From the IMG/VR virus record IMGVR_UViG_3300032829_000007: a DNA stretch of 64,000 bases. One strand, given 5' to 3'. Under the pieces are notes generated by a model. That model worked only from the letters and a program-made list of their open reading frames with translations. It was not told the DNA's origin and did no database searches. Shown in pieces: positions 9,456-23,449 of this stretch; the first letter of the stretch is position 1, and the number at the start of each line of letters is the position of its first letter. The position numbers were made by a program, and so were the translations under genes. The stretch is from an uncultured virus (IMG/VR IMGVR_UViG_3300032829_000007). Lineage: Duplodnaviria > Heunggongvirae > Uroviricota > Caudoviricetes.

Positions 9456-10154
9456 TTATTCTCCATATTTTTCATAAAACTTAATCCAATTCTTGATTGT
9501 TTTACCTGTAACACCATATTTTCTTCCTGTTGCAGAATAACCGATTTCTTTAATATTATTAATTAAAATTTCATATGATGGACGTTTAAAAATTCTTTTA
9601 TTTTTCATTGAAGTAATTAATACATTAGGATCATTAACATTATCAATATATTTTATTTTTTTATGTTTTTTTTTATTGTTTTTATTTTGTATATTTTTAC
9701 CACAATGTGTTGGTAATGTTGCATTACAATTAGGGCATAATATTTGTAAATTTTCTAATCTATTATCTGTATGATTGCCATTTTTATGATCTAAAATTAA
9801 TGACATATATTTTCCATACCATTCTTCATTTTGGCCACATAATTCACATTCTTTATTTTTTAATCCAGAGTTATATAATCTTTTTTTTAAACAACCCATA
9901 TTAGAATATGTTGAATTTATTGTTAATATTTCATTTAAATTTCGTATAATTTTATTACTTTGTATTGGATTTTTTTTATTATTAATTAATATAAAATTTA
10001 AATCAACATTAAGAATTTTAGCATATCTTTTTAATGTTCTAAAATTACCTGATGTTGTTTTTCTTTCTAATTTTCTTAAAATATCAGTTAATGAATTTGA
10101 TTCATTAACTAATTTTTGTAATTCATCCTTACTAATATTTTCAAATTTAATCAT
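9456..10154 (-). CDS. HNH homing endonuclease with C-terminal HTH
   Basis: CELCG..LDHKNGNHTDNRLENLQILCPNCN; C-terminal SATGRKYGVTGKTIKNW. Confidence 0.85.
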   Translation of the reverse strand: MIKFENISKDELQKLVNESNSLTDILRKLERKTTSGNFRTLKRYAKILNVDLNFILINNKKNPIQSNKIIRNLNEILTINSTYSNMGCLKKRLYNSGLKNKECELCGQNEEWYGKYMSLILDHKNGNHTDNRLENLQILCPNCNATLPTHCGKNIQNKNNKKKHKKIKYIDNVNDPNVLITSMKNKRIFKRPSYEILINNIKEIGYSATGRKYGVTGKTIKNWIKFYEKYGE

Positions 10155-10287
10155 AATTTTTAATTTATTATAAATACTTAAATAATTTTTTAAGGAATAG
10201 TTAAATGGTTAAAAATAATAAATTAAATAATGAAAAACATTAGTTTAACAAATTACTATACTATAATTTTATAATCTATTTATATAG

Positions 10288-10359
10288 AGCCTCTTACTTG
10301 AATTGAACAAGTATCTTCTCGTTACAAAGGAGAAATAATAACCATTATACTAAAGAGGC
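10288..10359 (-). tRNA. tRNA-Thr(TGT)
   Basis: GCCTCTT/AAGAGGC acceptor stem, loop TT-TGT-AA, TTCAA T loop. Confidence 0.8.
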
Positions 10360-10362
10360 ATG

Positions 10363-10433
10363 TGACTTCACTTGGAGTTGAACCAAGCTCACCATTTTAA
10401 AAGAGTGGGGCATAACCGCTTTGCTATGAAGTC
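10363..10433 (-). tRNA. tRNA-Lys(TTT)
   Basis: GACTTCA/TGAAGTC acceptor stem, loop CT-TTT-AA. Confidence 0.8.
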
Positions 10434-10439
10434 ATTTAG

Positions 10440-10513
10440 AGCAGGTAATCGGGATCAAACCGACTCTATTCCAGCTTGGAAGGCTGGTGCACCATCAATT
10501 ATGCGTTACCTGC
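10440..10513 (-). tRNA. tRNA-Gly(TCC)
   Basis: CCAGC-CT-TCC-AA-GCTGG anticodon arm, U73. Confidence 0.85.
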
Positions 10514-10520
10514 ATTTATT

Positions 10521-11321
10521 TTAATTATTTATATTATATTTTTTATTCCATTTATAAATTTTTAATAATAATTCATCAAGTGTTAATGAGCATCTATAAT
10601 TTTTTTTAACATTATCATTATGTAACATTAAACTACAATTAGCAGGATGTTTTATTATTTTAGGATCTATATTATTTTTAAAACCATAATTAATTGAAAT
10701 CATATGATCTCTACTTACACCATTTAAATTATCTCCATAATTTTTTGCTTTATACCAATCATATTTTTCAATTAAATTAATTTCAAATTCATTAGGATAA
10801 TCAGATATTCTAAAATCAAATTGGCAATCTTTATAATATTTTTGATATGAAGTTTTAATTTTTTTATAATACATATTTTTACAATCCATTGAACAAAATT
10901 TATTAATTCTTTTTTTAAAAATAAGATATTTTCCACATTCCTTACATGATTTAGGATTTTTTATATATTCTGAATAAGTGTCGCATATTTTTAATCTTTT
11001 ATATAATGCTTCTCTCATATTTTTTTTACCTTTTTCACTAAATATTTTTTTAAATTTACCTTTTTTATTTTTATTATTAAAAGAAGCTGAACAACTTTTT
11101 GAACAAAATATTTTTCTACAATCTCCTTTAATAATTTTTCCACATTTTTTGCAATATTTAATATTTGCTTTCTTATTATTTTGTGAACAATTAATAGAAC
11201 AAAAATGTTTTCTACCTTTTTTTTCACTTCTATTAAATTCACTACTAGTTTTATTAAATTGTTTATTACAATATGCACAAGTAACTGAGATTAATTTTCT
11301 ACCATCTTTCCAATTTTTCAT
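10521..11321 (-). CDS. Zn-finger-repeat, HNH-like homing endonuclease
   Basis: Repeated CxxC..FCSxxC modules; C-terminal SRDHMIS..HPANC..HNDNVKK. Confidence 0.7.
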   Translation of the reverse strand: MKNWKDGRKLISVTCAYCNKQFNKTSSEFNRSEKKGRKHFCSINCSQNNKKANIKYCKKCGKIIKGDCRKIFCSKSCSASFNNKNKKGKFKKIFSEKGKKNMREALYKRLKICDTYSEYIKNPKSCKECGKYLIFKKRINKFCSMDCKNMYYKKIKTSYQKYYKDCQFDFRISDYPNEFEINLIEKYDWYKAKNYGDNLNGVSRDHMISINYGFKNNIDPKIIKHPANCSLMLHNDNVKKNYRCSLTLDELLLKIYKWNKKYNINN

Positions 11322-11403
11322 AAATATTTTTTTAATATAAATACTATAAAATATAAAAAGTGGAACAAATGTAATTTGAATTCAAAGAACATTATAAAAA
11401 TTG

Positions 11404-11479
11404 CGGATTATATGGAATTCGAATCCATCTGATTATACTCCGTGACAGGGAGATAGCCACCCTAGCAGCCCCGTAGACC
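11404..11479 (-). tRNA. tRNA-Asp(GTC), imperfect acceptor stem
   Basis: CTCC-CT-GTC-AC-GGAG arm, TTCGAAT T loop, G73. Confidence 0.7.
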
Positions 11480-11487
11480 AATTTTTG

Positions 11488-11558
11488 CATAAGTAGCTGG
11501 AGTTGAACCAACAAATCACAGTTTTGGAGACTGCTTATCACACCACATGAGTACCTAT
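11488..11558 (-). tRNA. tRNA-Trp(CCA)
   Basis: GCAGT-CT-CCA-AA-ACTGT arm; short D arm. Confidence 0.75.
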
Positions 11559-11565
11559 ATTTTAG

Positions 11566-11637
11566 TGCAGCCGGAAGGACTTGAACCTTCACCCCATTGG
11601 TTAAAAGCCAATTGCTCTACATTGGAGCTACGACTGC
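11566..11637 (-). tRNA. tRNA-Lys(TTT)
   Basis: Canonical cloverleaf, TTGG-CT-TTT-AA-CCAA. Confidence 0.9.
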
Positions 11638-11646
11638 ATATTTTAG

Positions 11647-11720
11647 TGAACCTATTAGGACTCAAACCTAAATCTAAGGACTTAGAAGATCCTTGTATTA
11701 TTCAATTATACTATAGGTCC
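11647..11720 (-). tRNA. tRNA-Arg(TCT)
   Basis: AGGAT-CT-TCT-AA-GTCCT arm. Confidence 0.8.
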
Positions 11721-11725
11721 ATTTG

Positions 11726-11799
11726 CGGGATAGCAAGTAATCGAAACTTGATCAAGTGCTTAACAGGCAGTAGCTATATACCACTTAAGCTTTTTTCCC
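11726..11799 (-). tRNA. tRNA-Asn(GTT), imperfect stems
   Basis: TGC-CT-GTT-AA-GCA arm, TTCGA T loop, G73. Confidence 0.7.
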
Positions 11800-11808
11800 T
11801 AATATTTG

Positions 11809-11879
11809 TAGACCTAGATTTACTCGAAAAATCATCTTCGGTATGTAAAACCGTTGCTCTGCCTTTAAGCTATAGATCC
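11809..11879 (-). tRNA. tRNA-Val(TAC)
   Basis: CGGT-TT-TAC-AT-ACCG arm. Confidence 0.8.
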
Positions 11880-11891
11880 AATTATATTTTG

Positions 11892-11960
11892 TTGCGAGTG
11901 AGAGTAACGATCTCTCCTGATAAGTTTATGGGGCTTATTGGTTCACCTGAACTACTCGCA
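11892..11960 (-). tRNA. tRNA-Met(CAT), reduced D arm (Ile2 or fMet identity not excluded)
   Basis: TGCGAGT/ACTCGCA acceptor stem, loop CC-CAT-AA. Confidence 0.65.
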
Positions 11961-11967
11961 ATATTAG

Positions 11968-12040
11968 TAGGCATTTCAGAATTTGAATCTGAATTTCTTG
12001 AGTATCAGTCAAGGGTACTAACCAGTTATACTAAATGCCT
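11968..12040 (-). tRNA. tRNA-Ile(GAT)
   Basis: CTTGA-CT-GAT-AC-TCAAG arm. Confidence 0.85.
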
Positions 12041-12042
12041 AT

Positions 12043-12074
12043 AAAATAAAAAACCATCATTTTTGATGAGGGTT
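12043..12074 (-). terminator. Attenuator terminator in front of the 11-tRNA operon
   Basis: AACCCTCAT-CAAAA-ATGATGGTT followed by TTTTATTTT. Confidence 0.7.
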
Positions 12075-12100
12075 CTAATAAATCTTATTTAAATATTAAA

Positions 12101-12187
12101 TTAAGAATATAGTTTTCCCTCATGGTAAAATCCTCTTGTTTTATCACCATTATTAATCGCTACCATATTCCAATTTTTTGTTTGCAT
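12101..12187 (-). CDS. Leader peptide MQTKNWNMVAINNGDKTRGFYHEGKLYS (putative tRNA-sensing attenuator)
   Basis: 28-codon ORF between promoter and terminator; codons match the downstream tRNA anticodons; ATGAGGG is complementary to the terminator 5' arm. Confidence 0.75.
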   Translation of the reverse strand: MQTKNWNMVAINNGDKTRGFYHEGKLYS

Positions 12188-12236
12188 TTTTTAAAATTTA
12201 AATTCGATAATCTACAATAGTAGAAAATTTTCGATA

Positions 12237-12268
12237 CAAAGATAATTATAATTTTTTAATTATCCAAA
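12237..12268 (-). promoter_or_regulatory. Bacteroidota primary-sigma type promoter
   Basis: TTTG-N20-TATCTTTG matches the -33 TTTG / -7 TAnnTTTG consensus. Confidence 0.75.
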
Positions 12269-12450
12269 TAATTTTTAAACTATTTTTATATAAATACGTA
12301 AAATTTTATAAAAGGTTACGTATTTTATTATATTTTATAAAAGATATTTATAAGCTGAAGATCTATCAGATTCAACTTCTTCTTTTGTTAAAATTTTAAA
12401 AACTATTTTTTTATTATTTTTTATTTTTTTCATTATTAAAATATTATTAG

Positions 12451-12523
12451 AGGGAATAACAAGATTCAAACTTGCAACCTTTTCGTTCGTAGCGAAATGC
12501 TCTATTCATTGAGCTATATTCCC
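12451..12523 (-). tRNA. tRNA-Arg(ACG)
   Basis: TTTCG-CT-ACG-AA-CGAAA arm, GGGAATA/TATTCCC acceptor stem. Confidence 0.85.
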
Positions 12524-12534
12524 ATGATATTCAA

Positions 12535-13299
12535 TTAATTAAATGCTTCTTCTAATGAAAACAATAATTTTTGCAAATTTGCTTTATAAAATCCCGCACA
12601 ATTAATACAACCACATTCAATTATTTTATATTCATTATTTGTTAAACAAATATCCATAACAAAAGCATTATTTAATTGAAATAATTTTATCATTTCATTA
12701 CAATAATTATATACTGAAATATCAATATTATCATTTAATAATAATCTATTACCTAATTTATATTGACTAGCAGTAATAATTTCTCCTTTAACAATCCAAA
12801 ATCTAAATTCTTGTTGAATATTTTTTATTGTAGAAATTTGAATTTCAGTATTATTATCTAATATTGTTGAATGACCATTTGTTAAAGAATAATTTTTAAA
12901 TTTATTCCATTCATTCATATCAAATTCTCGTCCTGTAAATACTTTTGTATCTTTAGTAGGTCTAGCAAAAAATCTTTCCTTTTGAAAAAAATCATCACCA
13001 AATTTAATAATTTTAGAATCATAATTTAAAAGATTTTCTTTATAATATTCTTTATAAACTAAAAAATCATGATTTTCATTCATTTGTGAACCTGGTTTCC
13101 AACCATATTGGTTAGAAATTCTAGCCATTTTTAATGATCCAAAAGGAAAAATATCTTTTCTTTTAGTTTTAAATTTAATTGTTTCAATAAATGGAAGAAC
13201 TTTAACAATTTCATATTTAAATTTCATTTTATCTAATGCAATTATTAAATTGTTATAATTTTCTTCTCTAAAAACATTTTCTTGTACTATATAATACAT
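12535..13299 (-). CDS. ATP-grasp domain protein (DUF4343/R2K-like)
   Basis: FFARPTKDTKVFTG, EFRFWIVKGEIITASQY, FVMDIC..KIIECGCINCAGFY motifs. Confidence 0.75.
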   Translation of the reverse strand: MYYIVQENVFREENYNNLIIALDKMKFKYEIVKVLPFIETIKFKTKRKDIFPFGSLKMARISNQYGWKPGSQMNENHDFLVYKEYYKENLLNYDSKIIKFGDDFFQKERFFARPTKDTKVFTGREFDMNEWNKFKNYSLTNGHSTILDNNTEIQISTIKNIQQEFRFWIVKGEIITASQYKLGNRLLLNDNIDISVYNYCNEMIKLFQLNNAFVMDICLTNNEYKIIECGCINCAGFYKANLQKLLFSLEEAFN

Positions 13300-13328
13300 A
13301 ATATATAATTATTAAATTTAATATTTTG

Positions 13329-13411
13329 TTATTCCGGTAGGACTCGAACCTACAAGCCTTGCGGCATCTGCTTCAAAGACAGACATGTTTAGCCAATTCC
13401 ATCACGGAACA
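13329..13411 (-). tRNA. Class II (long variable arm) tRNA with TTG (Gln) anticodon
   Basis: TCTGT-CT-TTG-AA-GCAGA arm, GCC-GCAA-GGC variable hairpin, Leu-like D arm, U1-A72, A73. Confidence 0.8.
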
Positions 13412-13421
13412 ATATTATTAG

Positions 13422-13493
13422 TACTGCGTAGGAGGATCGAACTCCTGATAACAACATTGAAGGTGTTGTGGCTTACCACTTGCCGAACGCAGC
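13422..13493 (-). tRNA. tRNA-Glu(TTC), C33 variant
   Basis: CAACA-CC-TTC-AA-TGTTG arm, TTCGAT T loop. Confidence 0.75.
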
Positions 13494-13562
13494 ATTTTTA
13501 TATTTTAGGGTGTTAGGTGGAACTTGAAAATAAAAATTCAAGTATTTATAATAAATTTATTT

Positions 13563-14231
13563 ATGATCCCTCTTTTTGATATATCAAAAATTAATGAATA
13601 TAAATATAATAAAAAATTATCATTTCAATGTGAATATTGTGGAAATACTTTTACAGTAAAAAAAGATCAAGTAATGAAAGCCTTAAATAATCATTTAAGA
13701 ATTAAAATAAAATATTGTTCAAATAAATGTAGACTTAAAAGTAATGATAAAACTATTCAAATTAATTGTACACAATGTAAAAAATTATTTAAAAAACAAC
13801 ATCATAGAATTAGAAAAAATAATTTTTGTTCACAATCATGTGCAGCTATATATAATAATACACATAAAATAAAAGGTTATCATAGATCTAAACTTGAAAT
13901 TTATCTTGAAAATGAATTAATTAAATTATATCCTTTTTTAGAAATAAAATTTAATGAAAAAGAAATGATTAATTCAGAATTAGATATTTATTTTCCATTA
14001 TTTAAACTTGCAATTGAATTAAATGGTATATTTCATTATGAACCAATATTTGGTAAAAATAGATTAAATCAAATAAAAAATAATGATCAACGTAAATTTC
14101 AAGCTTGTTTAGAACAAGGAATTGAACTTTGTATTATAGATACATCACAACAAAAATATTTCAAAGAACAAACATCTAAAATTTATTTAGATATTATAAA
14201 AAATATTATAAATAAAAATTTAAATTTATAA
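13563..14231 (+). CDS. Zn-finger plus PD-(D/E)XK (Vsr/DUF559-like) endonuclease
   Basis: CxxC..(Y/F)CSxxC modules; SKLE..ELDIYFP..LAIELNGIFHY; ATG 13563 preferred because AGTATTTATA lies at 13541-13550. Confidence 0.75.
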   Translation: MIPLFDISKINEYKYNKKLSFQCEYCGNTFTVKKDQVMKALNNHLRIKIKYCSNKCRLKSNDKTIQINCTQCKKLFKKQHHRIRKNNFCSQSCAAIYNNTHKIKGYHRSKLEIYLENELIKLYPFLEIKFNEKEMINSELDIYFPLFKLAIELNGIFHYEPIFGKNRLNQIKNNDQRKFQACLEQGIELCIIDTSQQKYFKEQTSKIYLDIIKNIINKNLNL

Positions 14232-14241
14232 AATTAATTTG

Positions 14242-14313
14242 GGTGTAAGAATGGTATTGATCCATTTTCTCTTGATTCACAGTCAAGCGCATCACTTTAA
14301 TGCTTCAAACACC
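14242..14313 (-). tRNA. tRNA-His(GTG)
   Basis: CTTGA-CT-GTG-AA-TCAAG arm, G-1:C73; two acceptor mismatches. Confidence 0.75.
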
Positions 14314-14323
14314 ATATAACTAG

Positions 14324-14395
14324 TTCTCAGAGATGGAATCGAACCACCATTACGAAGATATAAGCTTCGCTTCCTGACCCTTAGAAGATCTGAGA
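14324..14395 (-). tRNA. tRNA-Ile(TAT)
   Basis: CGAAG-CT-TAT-AT-CTTCG arm, perfect TCTCAGA/TCTGAGA stem, A73. Confidence 0.85.
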
Positions 14396-14478
14396 ATAAA
14401 TAAATATATTATTAAACATTTAGTCAATTTTTAAATTGTGCAGTAATCACCTCGTGCAGGTAGTTTAATTTGATTACT

Positions 14479-14553
14479 TCAGGGTGACTGGATTCGAACC
14501 AGCGGACCGATGCTTCCAAGGCATCGTAGTATAGCCATCTGCAATACACCCTG
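14479..14553 (-). tRNA. tRNA-Pro(TGG)
   Basis: CAGGGTG/CACCCTG acceptor stem, GATGC-CT-TGG-AA-GCATC. Confidence 0.9.
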
Positions 14554-14558
14554 TTATA

Positions 14559-14595
14559 AAAATAAAAAAACCTTCTGAAAATTTTCCAGAAGGTT
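14559..14595 (-). terminator. Attenuator terminator in front of the 6-tRNA operon
   Basis: AACCTTCTG-GAAAATTTT-CAGAAGGTT followed by a T tract. Confidence 0.8.
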
Positions 14596-14626
14596 TATAT
14601 TGTTTTATTATAAAATATTTTATTTT

Positions 14627-14704
14627 TTAAACAACAATAGAATTCCTTCCGGCAAATTTTGCTGGTTGTTCAGGGCGTTCTATGTGTTGAAAAAACATTT
14701 TCAT
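14627..14704 (-). CDS. Leader peptide MKMFFQHIERPEQPAKFAGRNSIVV (putative tRNA-sensing attenuator)
   Basis: 25-codon ORF; codons 6-14 CAA CAC ATA GAA CGC CCT GAA CAA CCA match the six downstream tRNAs; CCGGAAGG pairs with the terminator arm CCTTCTGG. Confidence 0.8.
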   Translation of the reverse strand: MKMFFQHIERPEQPAKFAGRNSIVV

Positions 14705-14728
14705 TTCTTTTATTATTAAATTCAGATG

Positions 14729-14760
14729 CAAATATAAATATAATTTTTTAAATTTGCAAA
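14729..14760 (-). promoter_or_regulatory. Bacteroidota primary-sigma type promoter
   Basis: TTTG-N20-TATATTTG. Confidence 0.75.
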
Positions 14761-15423
14761 TATTTTTTAATCTTTTTTCATAAATAGTTAAAAATATTTT
14801 TTTATTATAAATATATTTGTTTATTTAAATATTATTTTGTAATTTTGCTGAATTAAATATTTCATGATATGAAAAAAGAAGTAAAAGAATTATATACATA
14901 TAATAAAGATTTATTACAATATAATAGAGTTGTTAATTTAATAACATTAATTGAAGAACAAGATAATGAAATTCAAGAATTAAATTATCAAAATTTTGAA
15001 TTAAAACAACAATTAAAAAATTCAAAAGAAAAAATTTGTATTGAATTTATAAAAGAATTATTATTTTCATGTGAAAAAGAAATTGAGCATATTAATAATG
15101 ATTATAAAGAAATTGAAAAAAGAGATTTACCAACAGTTATGAAAAATTTAATAAATTATATTAATGAATTTATTAAGGATAATAAAATTAAATAAAATTT
15201 ATTATGATAAAAATATATAATAATGTTGAAGATTTACCAAATGAAGAAACATTAAAAGAAAATTTTCGTATATTTTTATATTATTATAAAAAATTCATTT
15301 ATGGAGATTATATTCCAAATAATGAAGAATTGAAAAAAATATCTAAAATTTTATCTAAATTAGATAATTTATTATTAATGATGAAAGATGTTTATGATAA
15401 ACATTAAAATTAAATAATTATAT

Positions 15424-16329
15424 ATGAATATTTTTGATGCAACATTAAAAATAAAAAAATTTAAATATAAAGATTTAAGTTTTTTAAGATTAAATAATGA
15501 AATGATGTTATCAAGTTCATTATTATCATTATTATATTCAAGAAAAAAAATAAATAATTTAAATGATTTTTTTAATAAAACTAAATTTATTGGTTTAACT
15601 AAAGGAATTCATAATTTAGAAAATGAAAAAATTGTTAGTATTCGATATTTAAATGATAATATATTAAATTTAAATGATTTTATAGAAAATTCGCCAAATG
15701 AAATAAATACAAAAGAATATTGGAATTTTTTACATAAAGAATTTAAATATTGTGATGTTATGACATATCCTATTGAAGCAAATTTAAAAAATTATTTTGC
15801 TACAAAACAACCATTATATGAATCAATAATTAATAAATTTGATAATAAATTAAAATTTTTTGAAAATAAAAAAATATTAGAAATTGGTCCTGGATATGGA
15901 ATTTTACCTAAATTATTAAAAGAAAATAATATAAAATCTGATTATTATTGTGCTGATATTGTTAAAAGATTTAAACATAAAAATTTCATAGATATTGATG
16001 GATATTCATTATTAAAATATATAAATCAAAATTTTGATATTATATTCATGTCAGATGTTTTCCAACATTTAGGTATAGATATTATTAATACTTATTTTAC
16101 TGAATTTAAAAAATTATTAAATATAGATGGTTCTTTAATATTTACAACACCAACATTAAGTAAAAATGATTTATTAAACACTGCATTTTTTGCACAAACA
16201 TATATATTACCAAGTGAAAATTTATTTCATAAATTATTAAATAGTTTAAATTTTAATTTTATTAAAGAAAATATTTTTTCTAAAAATTATAAATGGGCTG
16301 AATTTTATATTGTAAAAAATAATATTTAG
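15424..16329 (+). CDS. Class I SAM-dependent methyltransferase
   Basis: ILEIGPGYG motif I, CADI motif II, FDIIFMSDVFQHL, LLNIDGSLIF. Confidence 0.8.
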   Translation: MNIFDATLKIKKFKYKDLSFLRLNNEMMLSSSLLSLLYSRKKINNLNDFFNKTKFIGLTKGIHNLENEKIVSIRYLNDNILNLNDFIENSPNEINTKEYWNFLHKEFKYCDVMTYPIEANLKNYFATKQPLYESIINKFDNKLKFFENKKILEIGPGYGILPKLLKENNIKSDYYCADIVKRFKHKNFIDIDGYSLLKYINQNFDIIFMSDVFQHLGIDIINTYFTEFKKLLNIDGSLIFTTPTLSKNDLLNTAFFAQTYILPSENLFHKLLNSLNFNFIKENIFSKNYKWAEFYIVKNNI

Positions 16330-18967: not shown

Positions 18968-21900
18968 ATGGCTTTAGAAAAAAATGATTTTATTAAGTAT
19001 TCTTATGATGAAGTTTATAATGCAACATTAAATTATTTTAACAATGATATATTAGCAACAGATGTATGGATTAAAAAATATTGTTTAAAAGATTCTGAAG
19101 GAAATTTATATGAAAAAACACCTGATGATATGCATAAAAGAATTGCTAAAGAATTAGCAAGAATTGAATTAAAATATCCAAATGCATTAAATGAAAATAA
19201 AATTTATGAAACATTAAAAAATTTTAATAGAATAGTACCACAAGGATCTCCAATGAGTGGAATAGGTAATAACTTTCAAATTATAAGTTTAGGCAATTGT
19301 TTTGTTACCGGTAATGAAAAAGATTCAGATTCTTATGGCGGAATTATGAGAATTGATCAAAATATTGCGCAGTTAGAAAAAAGAAGAGGTGGTGTTGGAG
19401 TTGATCTAAGTTTTATAAGACCAAATAATTCACCAGTAAAAAATAGTTCATTAACATCAACAGGCATTGTTCCTTTTATGGAAAGATACTCAAATACTAC
19501 AAAAGAGGTTGGACAAGGTAATCGGCGCGGAGCTTTAATGCTATCATTATCAGTTAAACATCCAGATGCGGAAAATTTTATTGATGCAAAATTAGAACAG
19601 GGTAAAGTTACTGGTGCTAATATATCAATTAAGGTAGATGATGAATTTATGAATTGTGTTATTAATAATAAAGAATATATTCAACAATATCCAATAGATA
19701 GTAATAATCCAAAATATATAAAAAATTTAAATGCTAATAAATTTTGGAAAAAATTAATGCATAATGCTTGGAAATGTCTTCCATATAATACATATATTAA
19801 TATATTATATAATAATAATCCATTAAAAATAAAAATTGGAGAACTTTATGAAAATAAAGAAAAATATAAAAATTCTAAAATTTTATCAATAAATCTTTCT
19901 AATTTAAAATTAGAAAATAAAGAAATTATTGATTTTCAAAAATATAAAAATAATAAAAAAATTATATCATTAAAAACAAAAAATAATAATTTTGTTAGTT
20001 CAACTGAAGATCATATTTTTTATATATTAAAAAATGAAAAAATAATTGAAACAAATATTAATGATATTAATATTGGAGATTTTATATTAACATCAAAAAA
20101 AAATATTGAAAATAATTATGGCTGTGATTATATTAAATTAAATTTAGAATTTTTTGAAAAAAGAGATGGAATTTGGTTTGAAAATATACCCGTAAATTTA
20201 AAAGATGATAAAATAAAAAAAATATTAAAAAAATATAAAAATGATGAATATATATTAAATGGATATATTAGAAGAAAATTAATACCATTAAATAGTTTTA
20301 ATTTAATAAAAGATAATTTAAATATTGTTGGAGATATTTATATTAGACCAAATACCACAAATAATTCTGAAATGAATTATTCTATTAATAATTTTCATAT
20401 TGATGAAAATTTATCAAGATTTTTTGGCTTATGGCTTGCTGATGGATCATATCATGGATCAAATGTTAGAATAAGTAGTAATGAAAAAGAAATTAATGAT
20501 TATAAAAAAATTTATGATTATATATCAAAAAAATTTAAATGTAATTATTCTATTAATAAAGAATATACTGTTGAAATTGGATCAAAATTTTTAGTTAATT
20601 TAATGAAATCTTTAGGATTTTGTTATGTTAATGGAAATAAAATTTTACCAAAATTTATTAAATCAATGAGTAATAATAATATTTCTAATTTTATTGGTGG
20701 ATTTATTGATGGTGATGGTACTGTTAGTAAAGAAGGTACAATAACAATAAATCAATCTAATTTTGAATTATTAAATGATATTAAAGAATTATTAATGTAT
20801 TTTAGCGTTTATTCATCTATATATCCTAAAATAATTAAAGAAGGTAAAATAATAAAAAATAATTATATATTATCAATACAAAAATTTGATAATAAAATTT
20901 TTATTAATGATATTAAATTATTAATAAAAAATAAATATAATAGAATAAAAACATCAAAAATAAGTGTTAAAACAGCTATTCCTATTCCTCCTATACGTAA
21001 ATTAATAGAAAATTGCAAATTTAAAAATAGAATGTATTTTTATGATGGTGGTATTAGTAAATATACGTTAAAAAAACATTTAAATTCTAAAAATATACAT
21101 AATACATTTTTAGAATCATTATGTAATGAAGATATTTATTTTGATAAAGTAATTGAAAAAAAAGAAGAAAATAATCAAGAATATGTTTATGATATTACAG
21201 TTAAAGATAATCATACTTTTGTATTATCTAATGGTATTATTCTTTCAAATAGTGCAGAACCAGGAATATTGTTTTGGGATACTATTATTAATGAATCTGT
21301 TGCAGATTGTTATTCCGATTTAGGATTTAAAACTGTATCTACAAACCCATGTCAACCGGCATGGGCTAAAATTTTAACTCCAAAAGGTATTAAAGAATTA
21401 AAAGATGTAAATATTGGAGATGAAATTTGGAGTTCTGAAGGATGGACTAAAATTATTAATAAATGGTCTACTGGTATAAAAAAAGTTTATAAATATTCAT
21501 TAGATTTTAATAAAAAAATACCTAATACTAATTTAGAATATGCATTTTATGGTACAGAAAATCATAAAATAGTTGATATTGGAAAAAAAATAGAAGTAGA
21601 TAATGCTAAAAATATTGATTGTTTTTTAAATAATGTATTCGATGATTTTAAAACTAATTTTACAGATATATTATCTATTGAACCATTAATGATAAAAAAT
21701 AAAGAATTTATTTCAGAAGAAGAAGTGTTTGATATTACTGTTGATAATAATTCTCACACATATTGGACACAAGGTTGTAATGTTTCTAATTGTGGCGAAT
21801 TACCTTTATGTATTTCTGATAGCTGTAGATTATTATTATTAAATTTATTTGGTTATGTTATAAATCCATTTACTAAAGATTCATATTTTAATTTTGATTT

Positions 21901-23449
21901 ATTTAAAAAAGATGTTTATATTGCTCAAAGATACATGGATGATATAAATGATTTAGAAATAGAAAAAATTGAATCTATTTTAAACAAAATTAAATCAGAT
22001 CCAGAAGATGAATTTATAAAATTATATGAAATTGATTTATGGGAAAAAATTAAAGAAAAATTAATTTTAGGAAGAAGAACTGGTTTAGGAATTACTGGTG
22101 AGGGTGATATGTTAGCTGCATTAGGATATAGATATGGAACTGATGAAGCAACAGATTTTTGTGTAAATGTTCATAAGATATTAAAATTAGAAGCATATCG
22201 TTCATCTGTTGATATGGCTAAAGAAAGAGGAAAATTTTCTATATATGATTCAATAAGAGAATTAAATAATCCTTTTATAAATAGAATCAAAAATGAAGAT
22301 ATTGAATTATATAATAATATGGTTAAATATGGGCGTAGAAACATTGCATTATTAACTATTGCTCCTGCTGGTAGTGTAAGTATTTGTACTCAAACAACAT
22401 CTGGTATTGAACCAGTATTTTTACCAACATATAAAAGAAGAAGAAAAATTAATCCACAAGAAAAAAATATAAGAATTGATTTTATTGATCCAGAAGGTAT
22501 TGCGTGGCAAGAATATAATGTATTTCATCATAAGTTTGAATTGTGGCTTAAAATAAATGGATATGATATTGAAAAAGTTAAATTAATGTCTAAAGAAGAA
22601 ATTGATGAAATAATTAAATTATCTCCATATTATAAAGCAACATCAAATGATTTAAATTGGGTTAAAAAAATTGAAATGCAAGGAAAAATCCAAAAACATG
22701 TAGATCACTCTATATCAGTTACTTGTAATCTTCCTTCAGATGTAAATGAAGAAATAGTTTCTAAAGTATACGAAACAGGTTGGAAATTTGGATGTAAGGG
22801 TGTAACGATTTATCGTGATGGTTCAAGAAATGGTGTGTTAGTATCTAATGATAATAAAAATGAAAAAACAAATAATAATATAAATGAAAATAATGCACCT
22901 AAACGTCCTAAAAAATTAAAAGGTGATATTATTAGATTTCAAAATAATTCTGAAAAATGGATTGGAGTTGTTGGCTTATATAAAGATAAACCATATGAAA
23001 TATTTACAGGTAAATTAGAAAATGGTTTATCTGTATTACCATCTTATGTAAAAACATGTGAAATAGTAAAAAATATAATTGAAGATGAAAATGGTAGCAA
23101 GAAAAAAAGATATGATATTGAATATATAGATTTAGAAGGAAAAAAACAAATTTCAACTGGTTTATCGCATAAATTTAATCCTGAATTTTGGAATTATGCA
23201 AAAATGATTTCAGGATTATTACGTCATGGTATGCCATTAATATCATTATATAAAACAATTGATTCATTAAATTTAGATGATACAAATTTAAATACATGGA
23301 AAGCTGGTATATTAAGAATCATAAAAAAATATATTAAGGATGGAGAAAAATTAAGTGGATATAAATGTCAAGAATGCGGAAGTGATCAACTTGAATTTAA
23401 AGAAGGATGTCTTACTTGTATGAATTGTGGAAATAGTAAATGTGGATAA
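18968..23449 (+). CDS. nrdJ: Class II (adenosylcobalamin-dependent) ribonucleotide reductase with two inteins
   Basis: NCFV, RRGA, STNP/CGE split by an intein, TIAPAGS, SGIEP, KGVTIYRDGSR, C-terminal Zn ribbon EGCLTCMNCGNSKCG; no beta subunit gene nearby. Confidence 0.9.
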   Translation: MALEKNDFIKYSYDEVYNATLNYFNNDILATDVWIKKYCLKDSEGNLYEKTPDDMHKRIAKELARIELKYPNALNENKIYETLKNFNRIVPQGSPMSGIGNNFQIISLGNCFVTGNEKDSDSYGGIMRIDQNIAQLEKRRGGVGVDLSFIRPNNSPVKNSSLTSTGIVPFMERYSNTTKEVGQGNRRGALMLSLSVKHPDAENFIDAKLEQGKVTGANISIKVDDEFMNCVINNKEYIQQYPIDSNNPKYIKNLNANKFWKKLMHNAWKCLPYNTYINILYNNNPLKIKIGELYENKEKYKNSKILSINLSNLKLENKEIIDFQKYKNNKKIISLKTKNNNFVSSTEDHIFYILKNEKIIETNINDINIGDFILTSKKNIENNYGCDYIKLNLEFFEKRDGIWFENIPVNLKDDKIKKILKKYKNDEYILNGYIRRKLIPLNSFNLIKDNLNIVGDIYIRPNTTNNSEMNYSINNFHIDENLSRFFGLWLADGSYHGSNVRISSNEKEINDYKKIYDYISKKFKCNYSINKEYTVEIGSKFLVNLMKSLGFCYVNGNKILPKFIKSMSNNNISNFIGGFIDGDGTVSKEGTITINQSNFELLNDIKELLMYFSVYSSIYPKIIKEGKIIKNNYILSIQKFDNKIFINDIKLLIKNKYNRIKTSKISVKTAIPIPPIRKLIENCKFKNRMYFYDGGISKYTLKKHLNSKNIHNTFLESLCNEDIYFDKVIEKKEENNQEYVYDITVKDNHTFVLSNGIILSNSAEPGILFWDTIINESVADCYSDLGFKTVSTNPCQPAWAKILTPKGIKELKDVNIGDEIWSSEGWTKIINKWSTGIKKVYKYSLDFNKKIPNTNLEYAFYGTENHKIVDIGKKIEVDNAKNIDCFLNNVFDDFKTNFTDILSIEPLMIKNKEFISEEEVFDITVDNNSHTYWTQGCNVSNCGELPLCISDSCRLLLLNLFGYVINPFTKDSYFNFDLFKKDVYIAQRYMDDINDLEIEKIESILNKIKSDPEDEFIKLYEIDLWEKIKEKLILGRRTGLGITGEGDMLAALGYRYGTDEATDFCVNVHKILKLEAYRSSVDMAKERGKFSIYDSIRELNNPFINRIKNEDIELYNNMVKYGRRNIALLTIAPAGSVSICTQTTSGIEPVFLPTYKRRRKINPQEKNIRIDFIDPEGIAWQEYNVFHHKFELWLKINGYDIEKVKLMSKEEIDEIIKLSPYYKATSNDLNWVKKIEMQGKIQKHVDHSISVTCNLPSDVNEEIVSKVYETGWKFGCKGVTIYRDGSRNGVLVSNDNKNEKTNNNINENNAPKRPKKLKGDIIRFQNNSEKWIGVVGLYKDKPYEIFTGKLENGLSVLPSYVKTCEIVKNIIEDENGSKKKRYDIEYIDLEGKKQISTGLSHKFNPEFWNYAKMISGLLRHGMPLISLYKTIDSLNLDDTNLNTWKAGILRIIKKYIKDGEKLSGYKCQECGSDQLEFKEGCLTCMNCGNSKCG
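19775..21250 (+). mobile_element. Intein 1 with LAGLIDADG homing endonuclease (492 aa)
   Basis: AWK|CLPYNT..STEDH..GLWLADGS..GGFIDGDG..VYDITVKDNHTF..ILSN|SAEPG. Confidence 0.9.
21350..21790 (+). mobile_element. Intein 2, mini-intein (147 aa)
   Basis: TNP|CQPAWAKILT..GTENHK..VFDITVDNNSHTY..VSN|CGE. Confidence 0.9.

What the first reader, a model, noticed from the sequence alone, without database searches (positions are those of the whole stretch)
10288..14760. tRNA operons gated by leader peptides that spell out their own anticodon set (tRNA-depletion-sensing attenuation)
Seen: both minus-strand tRNA operons have the same architecture: Bacteroidota-type promoter, 25-28-codon leader ORF, sequence able to form a long antiterminator, intrinsic terminator, first tRNA. 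The two leaders share no sequence, yet each one's sensor window contains codons for every tRNA species of its own operon and none for the other operon. Established: in trp/his-type attenuation a ribosome stalled on sensor codons frees the antiterminator; host anticodon nucleases destroy tRNAs during infection and phage tRNAs can compensate. Inference: the phage transcribes replacement tRNAs only when the matching host tRNAs are cleaved or depleted, i.e. a multiplexed OR-gate sensor for translation-targeting defence. I do not know of this being described for phage tRNA arrays.
Basis: partly seen in the sequence, partly recalled or inferred. Interest (0 to 1): 0.95.

Follow-up and report, generated by a model that had tools for sequence, protein, structure and literature searches.

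The report
Codon-matched leader attenuators gating phage tRNA arrays
In this AT-rich giant phage each block of tRNA genes sits behind a tiny test gene written in the codons those tRNAs read and wired to a switchable transcription stop, so the phage probably makes a tRNA set only when ribosomes decode its codons slowly.

Summary
Two minus-strand tRNA arrays (6 and 11 tRNA genes) each start with a TTTG/TAnnTTTG promoter, a 25- or 28-codon ORF, a strand complementary to the terminator's 5' arm, an intrinsic terminator and, 15-16 nt later, the first tRNA. Leader 1 holds QHIERPEQP, 9 of 9 codons read by its six tRNA species. Leader 2 holds TKNWNMVAINNGDKTRG, 16 of 17 codons, covering all ten of its species. 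No more than 2 of 20,000 random ORFs and 0 of 264 real small ORFs match this.

Relatives show the same design with different codons: 10 hand-read pairs and 31 automatically found pairs, including Prevotella phage Lak-B1. Permutation tests gave 0 of 200,000 and 0 of 100,000. Constrained folds give antiterminator when a ribosome stalls and terminator when it reaches the stop codon.

Best reading is trp/his-type ribosome-mediated attenuation applied to tRNA genes, a feedback on decoding capacity. There are no expression data.

Seven full-text searches found no published description. This scan has noted the same kind of element before on other DNA.

The parts
14729..14760 (-). Promoter 1, Bacteroidota type (TTTG-N20-TATATTTG)
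   Evidence: Pattern match. It is 24 of 32 identical by eye to promoter 2. The motif alone is not enriched in the window (11 found, 9.4 expected).
14627..14704 (-). Leader ORF 1, 25 codons + TAA: MKMFFQHIERPEQPAKFAGRNSIVV
   Evidence: Statistics.
14663..14689 (-). Sensor run of leader 1, codons 6-14: CAA CAC ATA GAA CGC CCT GAA CAA CCA. It covers Gln, His, Ile(ATA), Glu, Arg(CGC) and Pro.
   Evidence: 9 of 9 codons are read by array-1 tRNAs, and 6 of 6 species are covered.
14644..14653 (-). Antiterminator strand 1 (GCCGGAAGGA, codons 18-21). It pairs with the terminator's 5' arm.
   Evidence: Duplex -13.8 kcal/mol, z -4.4, reached by 0 of 300 shuffles. It is the MFE state when a stalled ribosome is modelled.
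14558..14596 (-). Intrinsic terminator 1 (13-bp stem, 14568-14596) plus T tract
   Evidence: -14.2 kcal/mol. A weak Rfam His_leader match covers 14563-14668 (26.1 bits, below the 49-bit cut-off).
14479..14553 (-). tRNA-Pro (tgg)
14323..14395 (-). tRNA-Ile (tat), reads ATA
14241..14312 (-). tRNA-His (gtg)
   Evidence: Relaxed ARAGORN; Rfam 42.2 bits
13524..14231 (+). Homing/HNH-endonuclease-like ORF, antisense to the array. It is an interruption of the array, not part of the switch.
   Evidence: PHROG 559, 1271 and 3339
13421..13493 (-). tRNA-Glu (ttc)
13328..13411 (-). tRNA-Gln (ttg)
12535..13299 (-). ATP-grasp (R2K clade) gene inside array 1
   Evidence: PF14243, 3e-17. Relatives of it were found in 57 viral loci, many of them with tRNA arrays nearby.
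12450..12523 (-). tRNA-Arg (acg)
12237..12268 (-). Promoter 2 (TTTG-N20-TATCTTTG)
12101..12187 (-). Leader ORF 2, 28 codons + TAA: MQTKNWNMVAINNGDKTRGFYHEGKLYS
12131..12181 (-). Sensor run of leader 2, codons 3-19 (TKNWNMVAINNGDKTRG)
   Evidence: 16 of 17 codons are read by array-2 tRNAs (the exception is GCG Ala), and 10 of 10 species are covered.
12116..12124 (-). Antiterminator strand 2 (CATGAGGGA, codons 22-24)
   Evidence: Duplex -11.1 kcal/mol, z -3.2, reached by 0.7% of shuffles
12044..12074 (-). Terminator 2 (weak hairpin, 12052-12074) plus T tract
   Evidence: -4.8 kcal/mol; -7.2 kcal/mol with the flanking A-U pairs
11403..12040 (-). Array 2, first block: Ile-gat, Met-cat, Val-tac, Asn-gtt, Arg-tct, Lys-ttt, Trp-cca, Asp-gtc
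   Evidence: Met and Asp are seen with relaxed ARAGORN only. Asp has 3 acceptor-stem mismatches. Trp scores 23.6 bits in Rfam.
10521..11321 (-). ORF inside array 2, related to HNH endonucleases
   Evidence: phrog_23051 at 3.6e-29 and phrog_1271 at 6e-5; no Pfam match
10287..10513 (-). Array 2, second block: Gly-tcc, Lys-ttt, Thr-tgt
   Evidence: Gly scores 46.1 bits in Rfam.

Best explanation
Each tRNA array is controlled by a ribosome-mediated (leader-peptide) transcription attenuator whose sensor codons are the codons read by the tRNAs downstream.

Shown from sequence: the parts are present, the codon match exceeds chance, leader codons co-vary with tRNA content across phages, and the ORF tail is specifically complementary to its own terminator.

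Inferred mechanism:
1. RNA polymerase starts at the TTTG/TAnnTTTG promoter and a ribosome loads on the leader.
2. If decoding of the sensor codons is slow, the ribosome lags or stalls upstream of the antiterminator strand. That strand pairs with the 5' arm of the terminator and transcription runs into the tRNA genes.
3. If decoding is fast, the ribosome reaches the stop codon 13-15 nt beyond the antiterminator strand and masks that strand. The terminator forms and transcription stops 15-16 nt before the first tRNA.
4. Untranslated RNA is predicted to fold an upstream hairpin plus the terminator.

The outcome is negative feedback that holds the supply of exactly those tRNA species at the level the phage's translation needs, whatever the cause of the shortage. 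Possible causes include a 20% GC phage in a host with a different tRNA pool, loss of host tRNA during infection, or cleavage by a defence nuclease.
For: 1. Parts. Both heads carry the full set of parts, and that combination occurs nowhere else in the window.
2. Codon match in the window. Leader 1 has 9 of 9 sensor codons and 6 of 6 species. Leader 2 has 16 of 17 codons and 10 of 10 species. This is reached by 0-2 of 20,000 random ORFs and 0 of 264 real small ORFs. Each leader against the other array scores at background.
3. Codon-level choice. ATA and CGC sit with Ile-tat and Arg-acg in array 1; ATT and AGA sit with Ile-gat and Arg-tct in array 2. The joint chance from phage codon usage is about 0.03.
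4. Co-variation.
- 10 leader/array pairs from 4 records: 0 of 200,000 permutations reach the observed match, and the own leader ranks 1-2 of 10 for every array.
- 31 automatically detected pairs from 57 further loci: 0 of 100,000. The own fraction is 0.32 against 0.16 for other arrays. In the 22 pairs with a terminator stem of at least 10 bp it is 0.42 against 0.20.
- Lak-B1 has the same design.
5. Antiterminator.
- The partner of the terminator's 5' arm is significant in 6 of 10 hand-read leaders and 17 of 22 automatic ones. In 16 of those 17 it lies in the ORF's 3' end or at the stop codon.
- Own ORF tail against own arm averages -10.5 kcal/mol, against -6.1 for other arms. 0 of 100,000 permutations reach this, and both window leaders rank 1 of 31.
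- In the homologous family the antiterminator strand changes together with the terminator arms.
6. Constrained folds.
- Stalled ribosome gives the antiterminator and no terminator: -21.7 kcal/mol (leader 1) and -15.1 (leader 2).
- Ribosome at the stop codon gives the terminator: -15.3 and -7.2.
- Naked RNA gives an upstream hairpin plus the terminator.
7. Geometry over 31 leaders. Own-codon density is 0.71-0.78 at 3-10 codons before the antiterminator strand and 0.14-0.38 at and after it.
8. Coding constraint. Indels inside the homologous ORFs are 6, 3 and 3 nt.
Against: - There is no evidence of transcription, translation or read-through. No RNA run is listed for this DNA.
- Terminator 2 is weak.
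- Three of the eleven array-2 tRNA calls fall below standard thresholds (Met, Trp, Asp), and Asp looks degenerate.
- Sensor codons mostly occur 1-4 times, not in long tandem runs as in hisL or pheL, so sensitivity to loss of one tRNA is uncertain.
- Glu, Gln, Arg-acg, and Gly/Lys/Thr lie 0.75-0.9 kb beyond intervening genes. One of those genes is antisense. Co-transcription with the leader is inferred only from the codon match and from the absence of another promoter motif.
- The simple duplex test shows no significant antiterminator in 4 of 10 hand-read and 5 of 22 automatic leaders.
- The host is unknown. The coupling of transcription and translation that the model needs has not been checked for Bacteroidota here.
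- The promoter motif is not enriched by itself.
Confidence: 0.75

Rival explanations
1. Same hardware, but selected specifically as a counter-defence sensor. Host anticodon nucleases or tRNA-depleting defences stall ribosomes on the leader and switch on replacement tRNAs, and the arrays are otherwise silent.
For: Any loss of a matching tRNA would slow the leader, so the circuit would respond (inference). Array 1 carries tRNA-Arg-acg, and leader 1 uses CGC and CAC. CGC is about 0% of Arg codons and CAC 5% of His codons in the phage's own long ORFs. Not every tRNA or sensor codon is therefore explained by phage codon demand. That phage tRNAs can compensate for cleaved host tRNAs is recalled knowledge, not checked here.
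Against: Nothing in the window or the relatives links the arrays to a defence or to an anticodon nuclease. Array 2 serves the phage's commonest codons (AAA, AAT, ATT, GAT, AGA), as plain supply/demand feedback predicts. The circuit cannot distinguish the causes of slow decoding.
Confidence: 0.2
2. The leader senses amino-acid starvation or global translation failure, not tRNA supply. Alternatively, it controls processing or stability of the precursor rather than termination.
For: Classical attenuators respond to charged tRNA, so starvation would also stall the ribosome. The modelled stalled state needs only an absent or slow ribosome.
Against: Making more tRNA does not relieve starvation, so this gives no reason for each leader to track its own array's anticodons across dozens of loci. 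The specific tail-to-terminator complementarity points to termination control.
Confidence: 0.08
3. Chance or composition. The small ORFs are untranslated accidents of AT-rich DNA beside ordinary terminators, or the RNA binds tRNA anticodons directly without translation, in a T-box-like way.
For: Small ORFs are common in 20% GC DNA (264 of 18-45 codons in the window). The promoter motif alone is not enriched.
Against: 0 of 264 small ORFs and at most 2 of 20,000 random ORFs match. Permutations give 0 of 100,000-200,000. Indels in homologous ORFs are in frame. There is no Rfam T-box match at E<=1 in 9500-15500.
Confidence: 0.02

Closest known systems
Leader-peptide transcription attenuators of enterobacterial amino-acid operons (trpL, hisL, leuL, thrL, pheL; the multivalent ilvGMEDA leader). 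Recalled from textbook knowledge.
   Same: Promoter, short ORF with regulatory codons, antiterminator competing with an intrinsic terminator, and ribosome position deciding the fold. The predicted three states (stalled, at stop, untranslated) match the trp model. A weak Rfam His_leader match lies at 14563-14668.
   Different: The regulated genes are tRNAs, not biosynthetic enzymes. The sensor is a mixed run of 6-10 different codon kinds that mirrors the anticodon set downstream, not a tandem run of one amino acid. The product feeds back directly on the sensor. The element is in a phage with Bacteroidota-type promoters. There is no sequence homology (His_leader scores 26.1 bits against a 49-bit cut-off).
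pheST (pheM leader) attenuation of phenylalanyl-tRNA synthetase in E. coli. Recalled.
   Same: A leader-peptide attenuator that controls a component of the translation apparatus rather than a biosynthetic pathway.
   Different: It controls a synthetase, senses one amino acid, and is cellular rather than viral.
T-box riboswitches
   Same: Terminator/antiterminator switches that read the state of a specific tRNA through codon-anticodon pairing.
   Different: A T-box binds uncharged tRNA directly, without a ribosome, and regulates synthetase or amino-acid genes. No Rfam T-box match was found here at E<=1, and the element here is an ORF with in-frame evolution.
tRNA gene arrays of large phages (T4, T5, Lak megaphages)
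   Same: Clusters of tRNA genes interspersed with homing endonucleases in a phage genome. Lak-B1 carries the same leader design.
   Different: Published accounts that I could search treat the arrays as codon-usage or counter-defence cargo. The Lak paper PMC6784885 has 0 occurrences of 'leader' and 'terminator' in the search listing (the paper itself was not read). Codon-matched attenuator control is not described there.

Membership tests
Ribosome-mediated (leader-peptide) transcription attenuator | Short ORF between the promoter and the first regulated gene | tested here: met
   25- and 28-codon ATG ORFs lie 25 and 50 nt after the promoter motifs.
Ribosome-mediated (leader-peptide) transcription attenuator | Regulatory codons that correspond to what the operon supplies | tested here: met
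   9 of 9 and 16 of 17 sensor codons, with all species covered. Nulls, co-variation.
Ribosome-mediated (leader-peptide) transcription attenuator | Intrinsic terminator before the first regulated gene | tested here: met
   13-bp stem plus T tract at 14558-14596. The hairpin plus T tract at 12044-12074 is weaker.
Ribosome-mediated (leader-peptide) transcription attenuator | Antiterminator mutually exclusive with the terminator, placed so that ribosome position decides | tested here: met
   Prediction only.
Ribosome-mediated (leader-peptide) transcription attenuator | Leader is translated and read-through rises when the cognate charged tRNA is short | not testable with these tools
   No RNA run is listed for this DNA. 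In-frame indels in homologues are indirect support for translation.
Rfam His_leader (RF00514) | Score at or above the gathering threshold | tested here: not met
   26.1 bits against 49, E 0.42
T-box riboswitch | Match to the T-box covariance model (specifier loop and T-box sequence) | tested here: not met
   No T-box match at E<=1 in 9500-15500 or at gathering score in the whole window.
Phage tRNA gene array | Cluster of tRNA genes in a phage genome | tested here: met
   14 tRNAs at or above the Rfam threshold at 10288-14553. Phage context comes from blastn to huge phages and Lak phages and from PHROG hits.

The most novel reading that the evidence does not exclude
The codon-matched leaders make each tRNA array an inducible counter-defence module. 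Cleavage or depletion of any one of the matching host tRNA species, for example by an anticodon nuclease, stalls ribosomes on the leader and switches on exactly the replacement set. On this reading, huge phages carry a multiplexed, self-resetting sensor of attacks on translation.
Probability: 0.25. Interest if true: 0.95.

Novelty: new variant of a known kind. Interest (0 to 1): 0.85.

Why it matters
If it works as read, the tRNA genes of giant phages are not constitutive cargo. They would be feedback-controlled by a direct read-out of decoding speed, a control logic so far known for amino-acid operons and one synthetase.

It would explain three things:
- how a 20% GC phage tunes tRNA supply in a foreign host;
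- why the arrays are split into blocks, each with its own leader;
- which tRNAs are co-transcribed across the interspersed endonuclease genes.

The leaders are short, modular and programmable by codon choice. They are easy to test in cell-free systems with defined tRNA pools, and they could serve as sensors of tRNA availability. The design recurs in dozens of uncultured phages and in the published Lak megaphage genomes, so it is a general feature and not an oddity of one contig.

Tried and rejected
- Whole genome of the window: none is held.
- RNA evidence: no RNA holder is listed.
- Laying contigs of three DNA runs: only short, low-depth pieces and no informative variants in the leaders.
- Sigma-70 promoter scan: not above shuffles, 63 found against 59.4 expected.
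- Bacteroidota promoter motif alone: not enriched, 11 found against 9.4 expected. Promoter calls therefore rest on position and mutual similarity.
- First codon-decoding script: it had errors (ATG assigned to Ile-tat, G34 codons overwritten). Its numbers are not used. One search timed out and one search replaces both.
- First terminator-anchored screen: it missed two leaders of L003 that I had seen by eye, because their first tRNA is visible only at relaxed threshold.
- Automatic pipeline: it also picked false leaders, such as ORFs that are translations of tRNA DNA and a 52-aa and a 65-aa ORF. These were kept in the 31-pair test and lower its contrast.
- Simple duplex test: it found no significant antiterminator in 4 of 10 and 5 of 22 leaders.
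- T-box and His_leader membership: rejected on Rfam scores.
- Chance or composition: rejected.


Full report
**What is there.** The window is about 20% GC. Its closest matches are uncultured huge phages (LR756500.1, 68.7% identity over 17% of the query) and Prevotella Lak megaphages. Its large ORFs hit phage families such as ribonucleotide reductase, exonuclease and dNMP kinase. All tRNA genes of the window lie on the minus strand between 10287 and 14553. ARAGORN at default finds 11 and Rfam finds 14 at or above its threshold. Relaxed ARAGORN adds six that fill the gaps of the arrays with 4-11 nt spacers. Of these six:
- His, Asn and Gly are backed by Rfam.
- Trp scores 23.6 bits, below the cut-off.
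- Met and Asp have no Rfam match at E<=1.
- Met and Trp have sound acceptor, anticodon and T arms but a poor D arm.
- Asp has three acceptor-stem mismatches and may be degenerate.

Array 1 is Pro-tgg, Ile-tat, His-gtg, [antisense endonuclease-like ORF], Glu-ttc, Gln-ttg, [ATP-grasp R2K gene], Arg-acg. Array 2 is Ile-gat, Met-cat, Val-tac, Asn-gtt, Arg-tct, Lys-ttt, Trp-cca, Asp-gtc, [HNH-related ORF], Gly-tcc, Lys-ttt, Thr-tgt.

**The heads of the arrays.** Each array begins with these parts:
- a TTTG-N20-TAnnTTTG motif;
- an ATG ORF of 25 or 28 codons ending in TAA;
- a hairpin plus T tract that ends 15-16 nt before the first tRNA.

The combination of promoter motif, 10-60-codon ORF and terminator occurs only at these two places on either strand of the 64 kb. 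The promoter motif by itself is not enriched (11 found, 9.4 expected). Terminator 2 is weak.

**The codon match.** Leader 1 (MKMFFQHIERPEQPAKFAGRNSIVV) holds the run CAA CAC ATA GAA CGC CCT GAA CAA CCA. All nine codons are read by the six tRNA species of array 1, and all six species are represented. Leader 2 (MQTKNWNMVAINNGDKTRGFYHEGKLYS) holds a 17-codon run of which 16 are read by array 2, the exception being GCG, with all ten species represented.

I used a window-scan statistic together with species coverage. Leader 1 is matched by 0 of 20,000 ORFs drawn from the phage's codon usage, and leader 2 by 0-2 of 20,000. Neither is matched by any of the 264 real ATG ORFs of 18-45 codons in the six frames of the window. 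Each leader scored against the other array is at background.

The choice is also right at codon level. ATA and CGC sit with Ile-tat and Arg-acg, and ATT and AGA sit with Ile-gat and Arg-tct. The joint chance from codon usage is about 0.03. Outside the runs, both ORFs contain codons of the other set, so 'none for the other operon' holds only inside the runs.

**Relatives.** I read ten leader/array pairs in four records: the window, LR756500.1, LR756501.1 and one IMG/VR contig. The rule was the longest ATG ORF ending within 170 nt of the terminator. Two of the ten were first seen by eye. Examples:

| Leader (or its sensor run) | tRNAs downstream |
|---|---|
| MKAISVHIIHIWEHLLEEVNINIM | His, Glu, Val, Trp, Leu |
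| ...PQHQPQQ... | Pro, Pro, Pro, His, Gln, Gln |
| ...KYGKTTKSYKKYKMKK... | Lys, Lys, Tyr |
| ...TPAPAVAFRRGTGTGTGTCVPAGCG... | Arg, Pro, Ala, Thr, Val, Gly |

After shuffling which array belongs to which leader, 0 of 200,000 permutations reach the observed concordance. Each array's own leader ranks first or second of ten.

An alignment of the ATP-grasp protein brought 57 more viral loci. A fully automatic screen of these (terminator within 110 nt of a tRNA, longest short ORF upstream) gave 46 candidates, 31 of them unique.
- All 31 pairs: 0 of 100,000 permutations reach the observed value, with an own fraction of 0.32 against 0.16 for other arrays.
- The 22 pairs with a terminator stem of at least 10 bp: again 0 of 100,000, with 0.42 against 0.20.

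The screen includes some false leaders, which I kept in the test. Prevotella phage Lak-B1 shows the same design: the sensor run CMHPVCGMIHMFPCGGGRLM precedes His, Pro, Arg, Arg, Gly, Gly, Cys, Met.

The homologous locus beside the ATP-grasp gene is the clearest case. Relatives with Pro/His/Gln arrays have P/Q/H leaders. The window's array also contains Ile-tat, Glu and Arg-acg, and its leader also contains ATA, GAA and CGC.

**The switch.** The 5' arm of each terminator is complementary to a strand in the last codons of its leader.
- Window leader 1: GCCGGAAGGA, codons 18-21, -13.8 kcal/mol, z -4.4.
- Window leader 2: CATGAGGGA, codons 22-24, -11.1 kcal/mol, z -3.2.
- Such a partner is significant in 6 of 10 hand-read leaders and 17 of 22 automatic ones. 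In 16 of those 17 it lies inside the ORF's 3' end or at the stop codon.
- Own tail against own arm averages -10.5 kcal/mol, against -6.1 for other arms. 0 of 100,000 permutations reach this, and both window leaders rank 1 of 31.
- In the homologous family this strand is a copy of the terminator's 3' arm: GAATGGGG in five relatives, and CCGGAAGG beside CAGAAGG in the window. The three strands have therefore changed together.

Folds with the ribosome modelled as a mask give three states:

| Modelled state | Predicted fold | Leader 1 (kcal/mol) | Leader 2 (kcal/mol) |
|---|---|---|---|
| Ribosome stalled at codon 10 | Antiterminator, no terminator | -21.7 | -15.1 |
| Ribosome at the stop codon | Terminator | -15.3 | -7.2 |
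| Naked RNA | Upstream hairpin plus terminator | -32.4 | -22.8 |

Over 31 leaders, own-array codons make up 0.71-0.78 of codons 3-10 positions before the antiterminator strand and 0.14-0.38 at and after it. Indels inside the homologous ORFs are 6, 3 and 3 nt.

**Reading.** The parts, their geometry and their co-variation fit trp/his-type attenuation in which the regulated product is the tRNA set itself. That makes it a feedback on decoding capacity. All mechanistic steps are inferred from sequence. No RNA run is listed and the laid DNA contigs added nothing about the leaders.

Array 2 serves the phage's commonest codons, as plain supply/demand control predicts. Against that, leader 1 uses CGC and CAC, which the phage's own genes almost never use, and this is not explained by demand.

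**Novelty.** Seven full-text searches returned no paper describing leader-peptide attenuation of tRNA genes or of phage tRNA arrays. I saw search listings and abstract starts only and read no paper. In the listing, the Lak megaphage paper PMC6784885 has 0 occurrences of 'leader' and 'terminator'. Subscription journals and closed supplements were not searched.

This scan's own notebook holds the same kind of finding on other DNA: 55 notes in at least 50 genomes. I saw these after forming my reading and did not test them. There are no earlier notes on this genome.

Noticed in passing
window 13524-14231 (+), 10521-11321 (-), 9456-10154 (-): Three HNH/homing-endonuclease-like ORFs sit between or beside the tRNA blocks. 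One contig of run X3, laid at the 85% likeness setting, joins 13493 to 14237 and so lacks the antisense ORF. This is a weak hint that a relative has His and Glu tRNAs adjacent.
   Followed up: partly
window 12535-13299 (-): An ATP-grasp gene of the R2K clade (PF14243) lies inside array 1. Relatives of it were found in 57 viral loci, many of them with tRNA arrays nearby. Its role is unknown, and by position it would be co-transcribed with the tRNAs.
   Followed up: partly
window 14663-14689 (-): Leader 1 uses CGC (about 0% of Arg codons in the phage's long ORFs) and CAC (5% of His codons). The sensor is therefore not written in the phage's usual codon dialect.
   Followed up: partly
L067 9499-9700 (Prevotella phage Lak-B1, MK250020.1): A 42-codon leader with the run CMHPVCGMIHMFPCGGGRLM and a terminator precede His, Pro, Arg, Arg, Gly, Gly, Cys and Met tRNAs. 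By eye, the ORF's CTTGAGG complements the terminator's 5' arm.
   Followed up: partly
window 18968-23449 (+): A 1493-aa ribonucleotide reductase large-subunit ORF matches the PHROG profiles in two separated stretches (28-245 and 805-1492). This suggests a large insertion such as an intein.
   Followed up: no
window 11403-11479 (-): The tRNA-Asp(gtc) candidate has three mismatches in its acceptor stem and no Rfam match. It may be a decaying copy, yet GAT is still present in leader 2.
   Followed up: partly
window 14396-14478 (-) and about 12292-12325 (-): An 83-nt spacer between tRNA-Pro and tRNA-Ile(tat) is unexplained. By eye, a 10-bp hairpin without a T tract lies just upstream of promoter 2 and may mark the end of array 1.
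   Followed up: no
window 14816-14847 (+): A TTTG/TAnnTTTG motif on the plus strand points away from promoter 1 towards the genes starting at 14869. It may be a divergent promoter pair.
   Followed up: no
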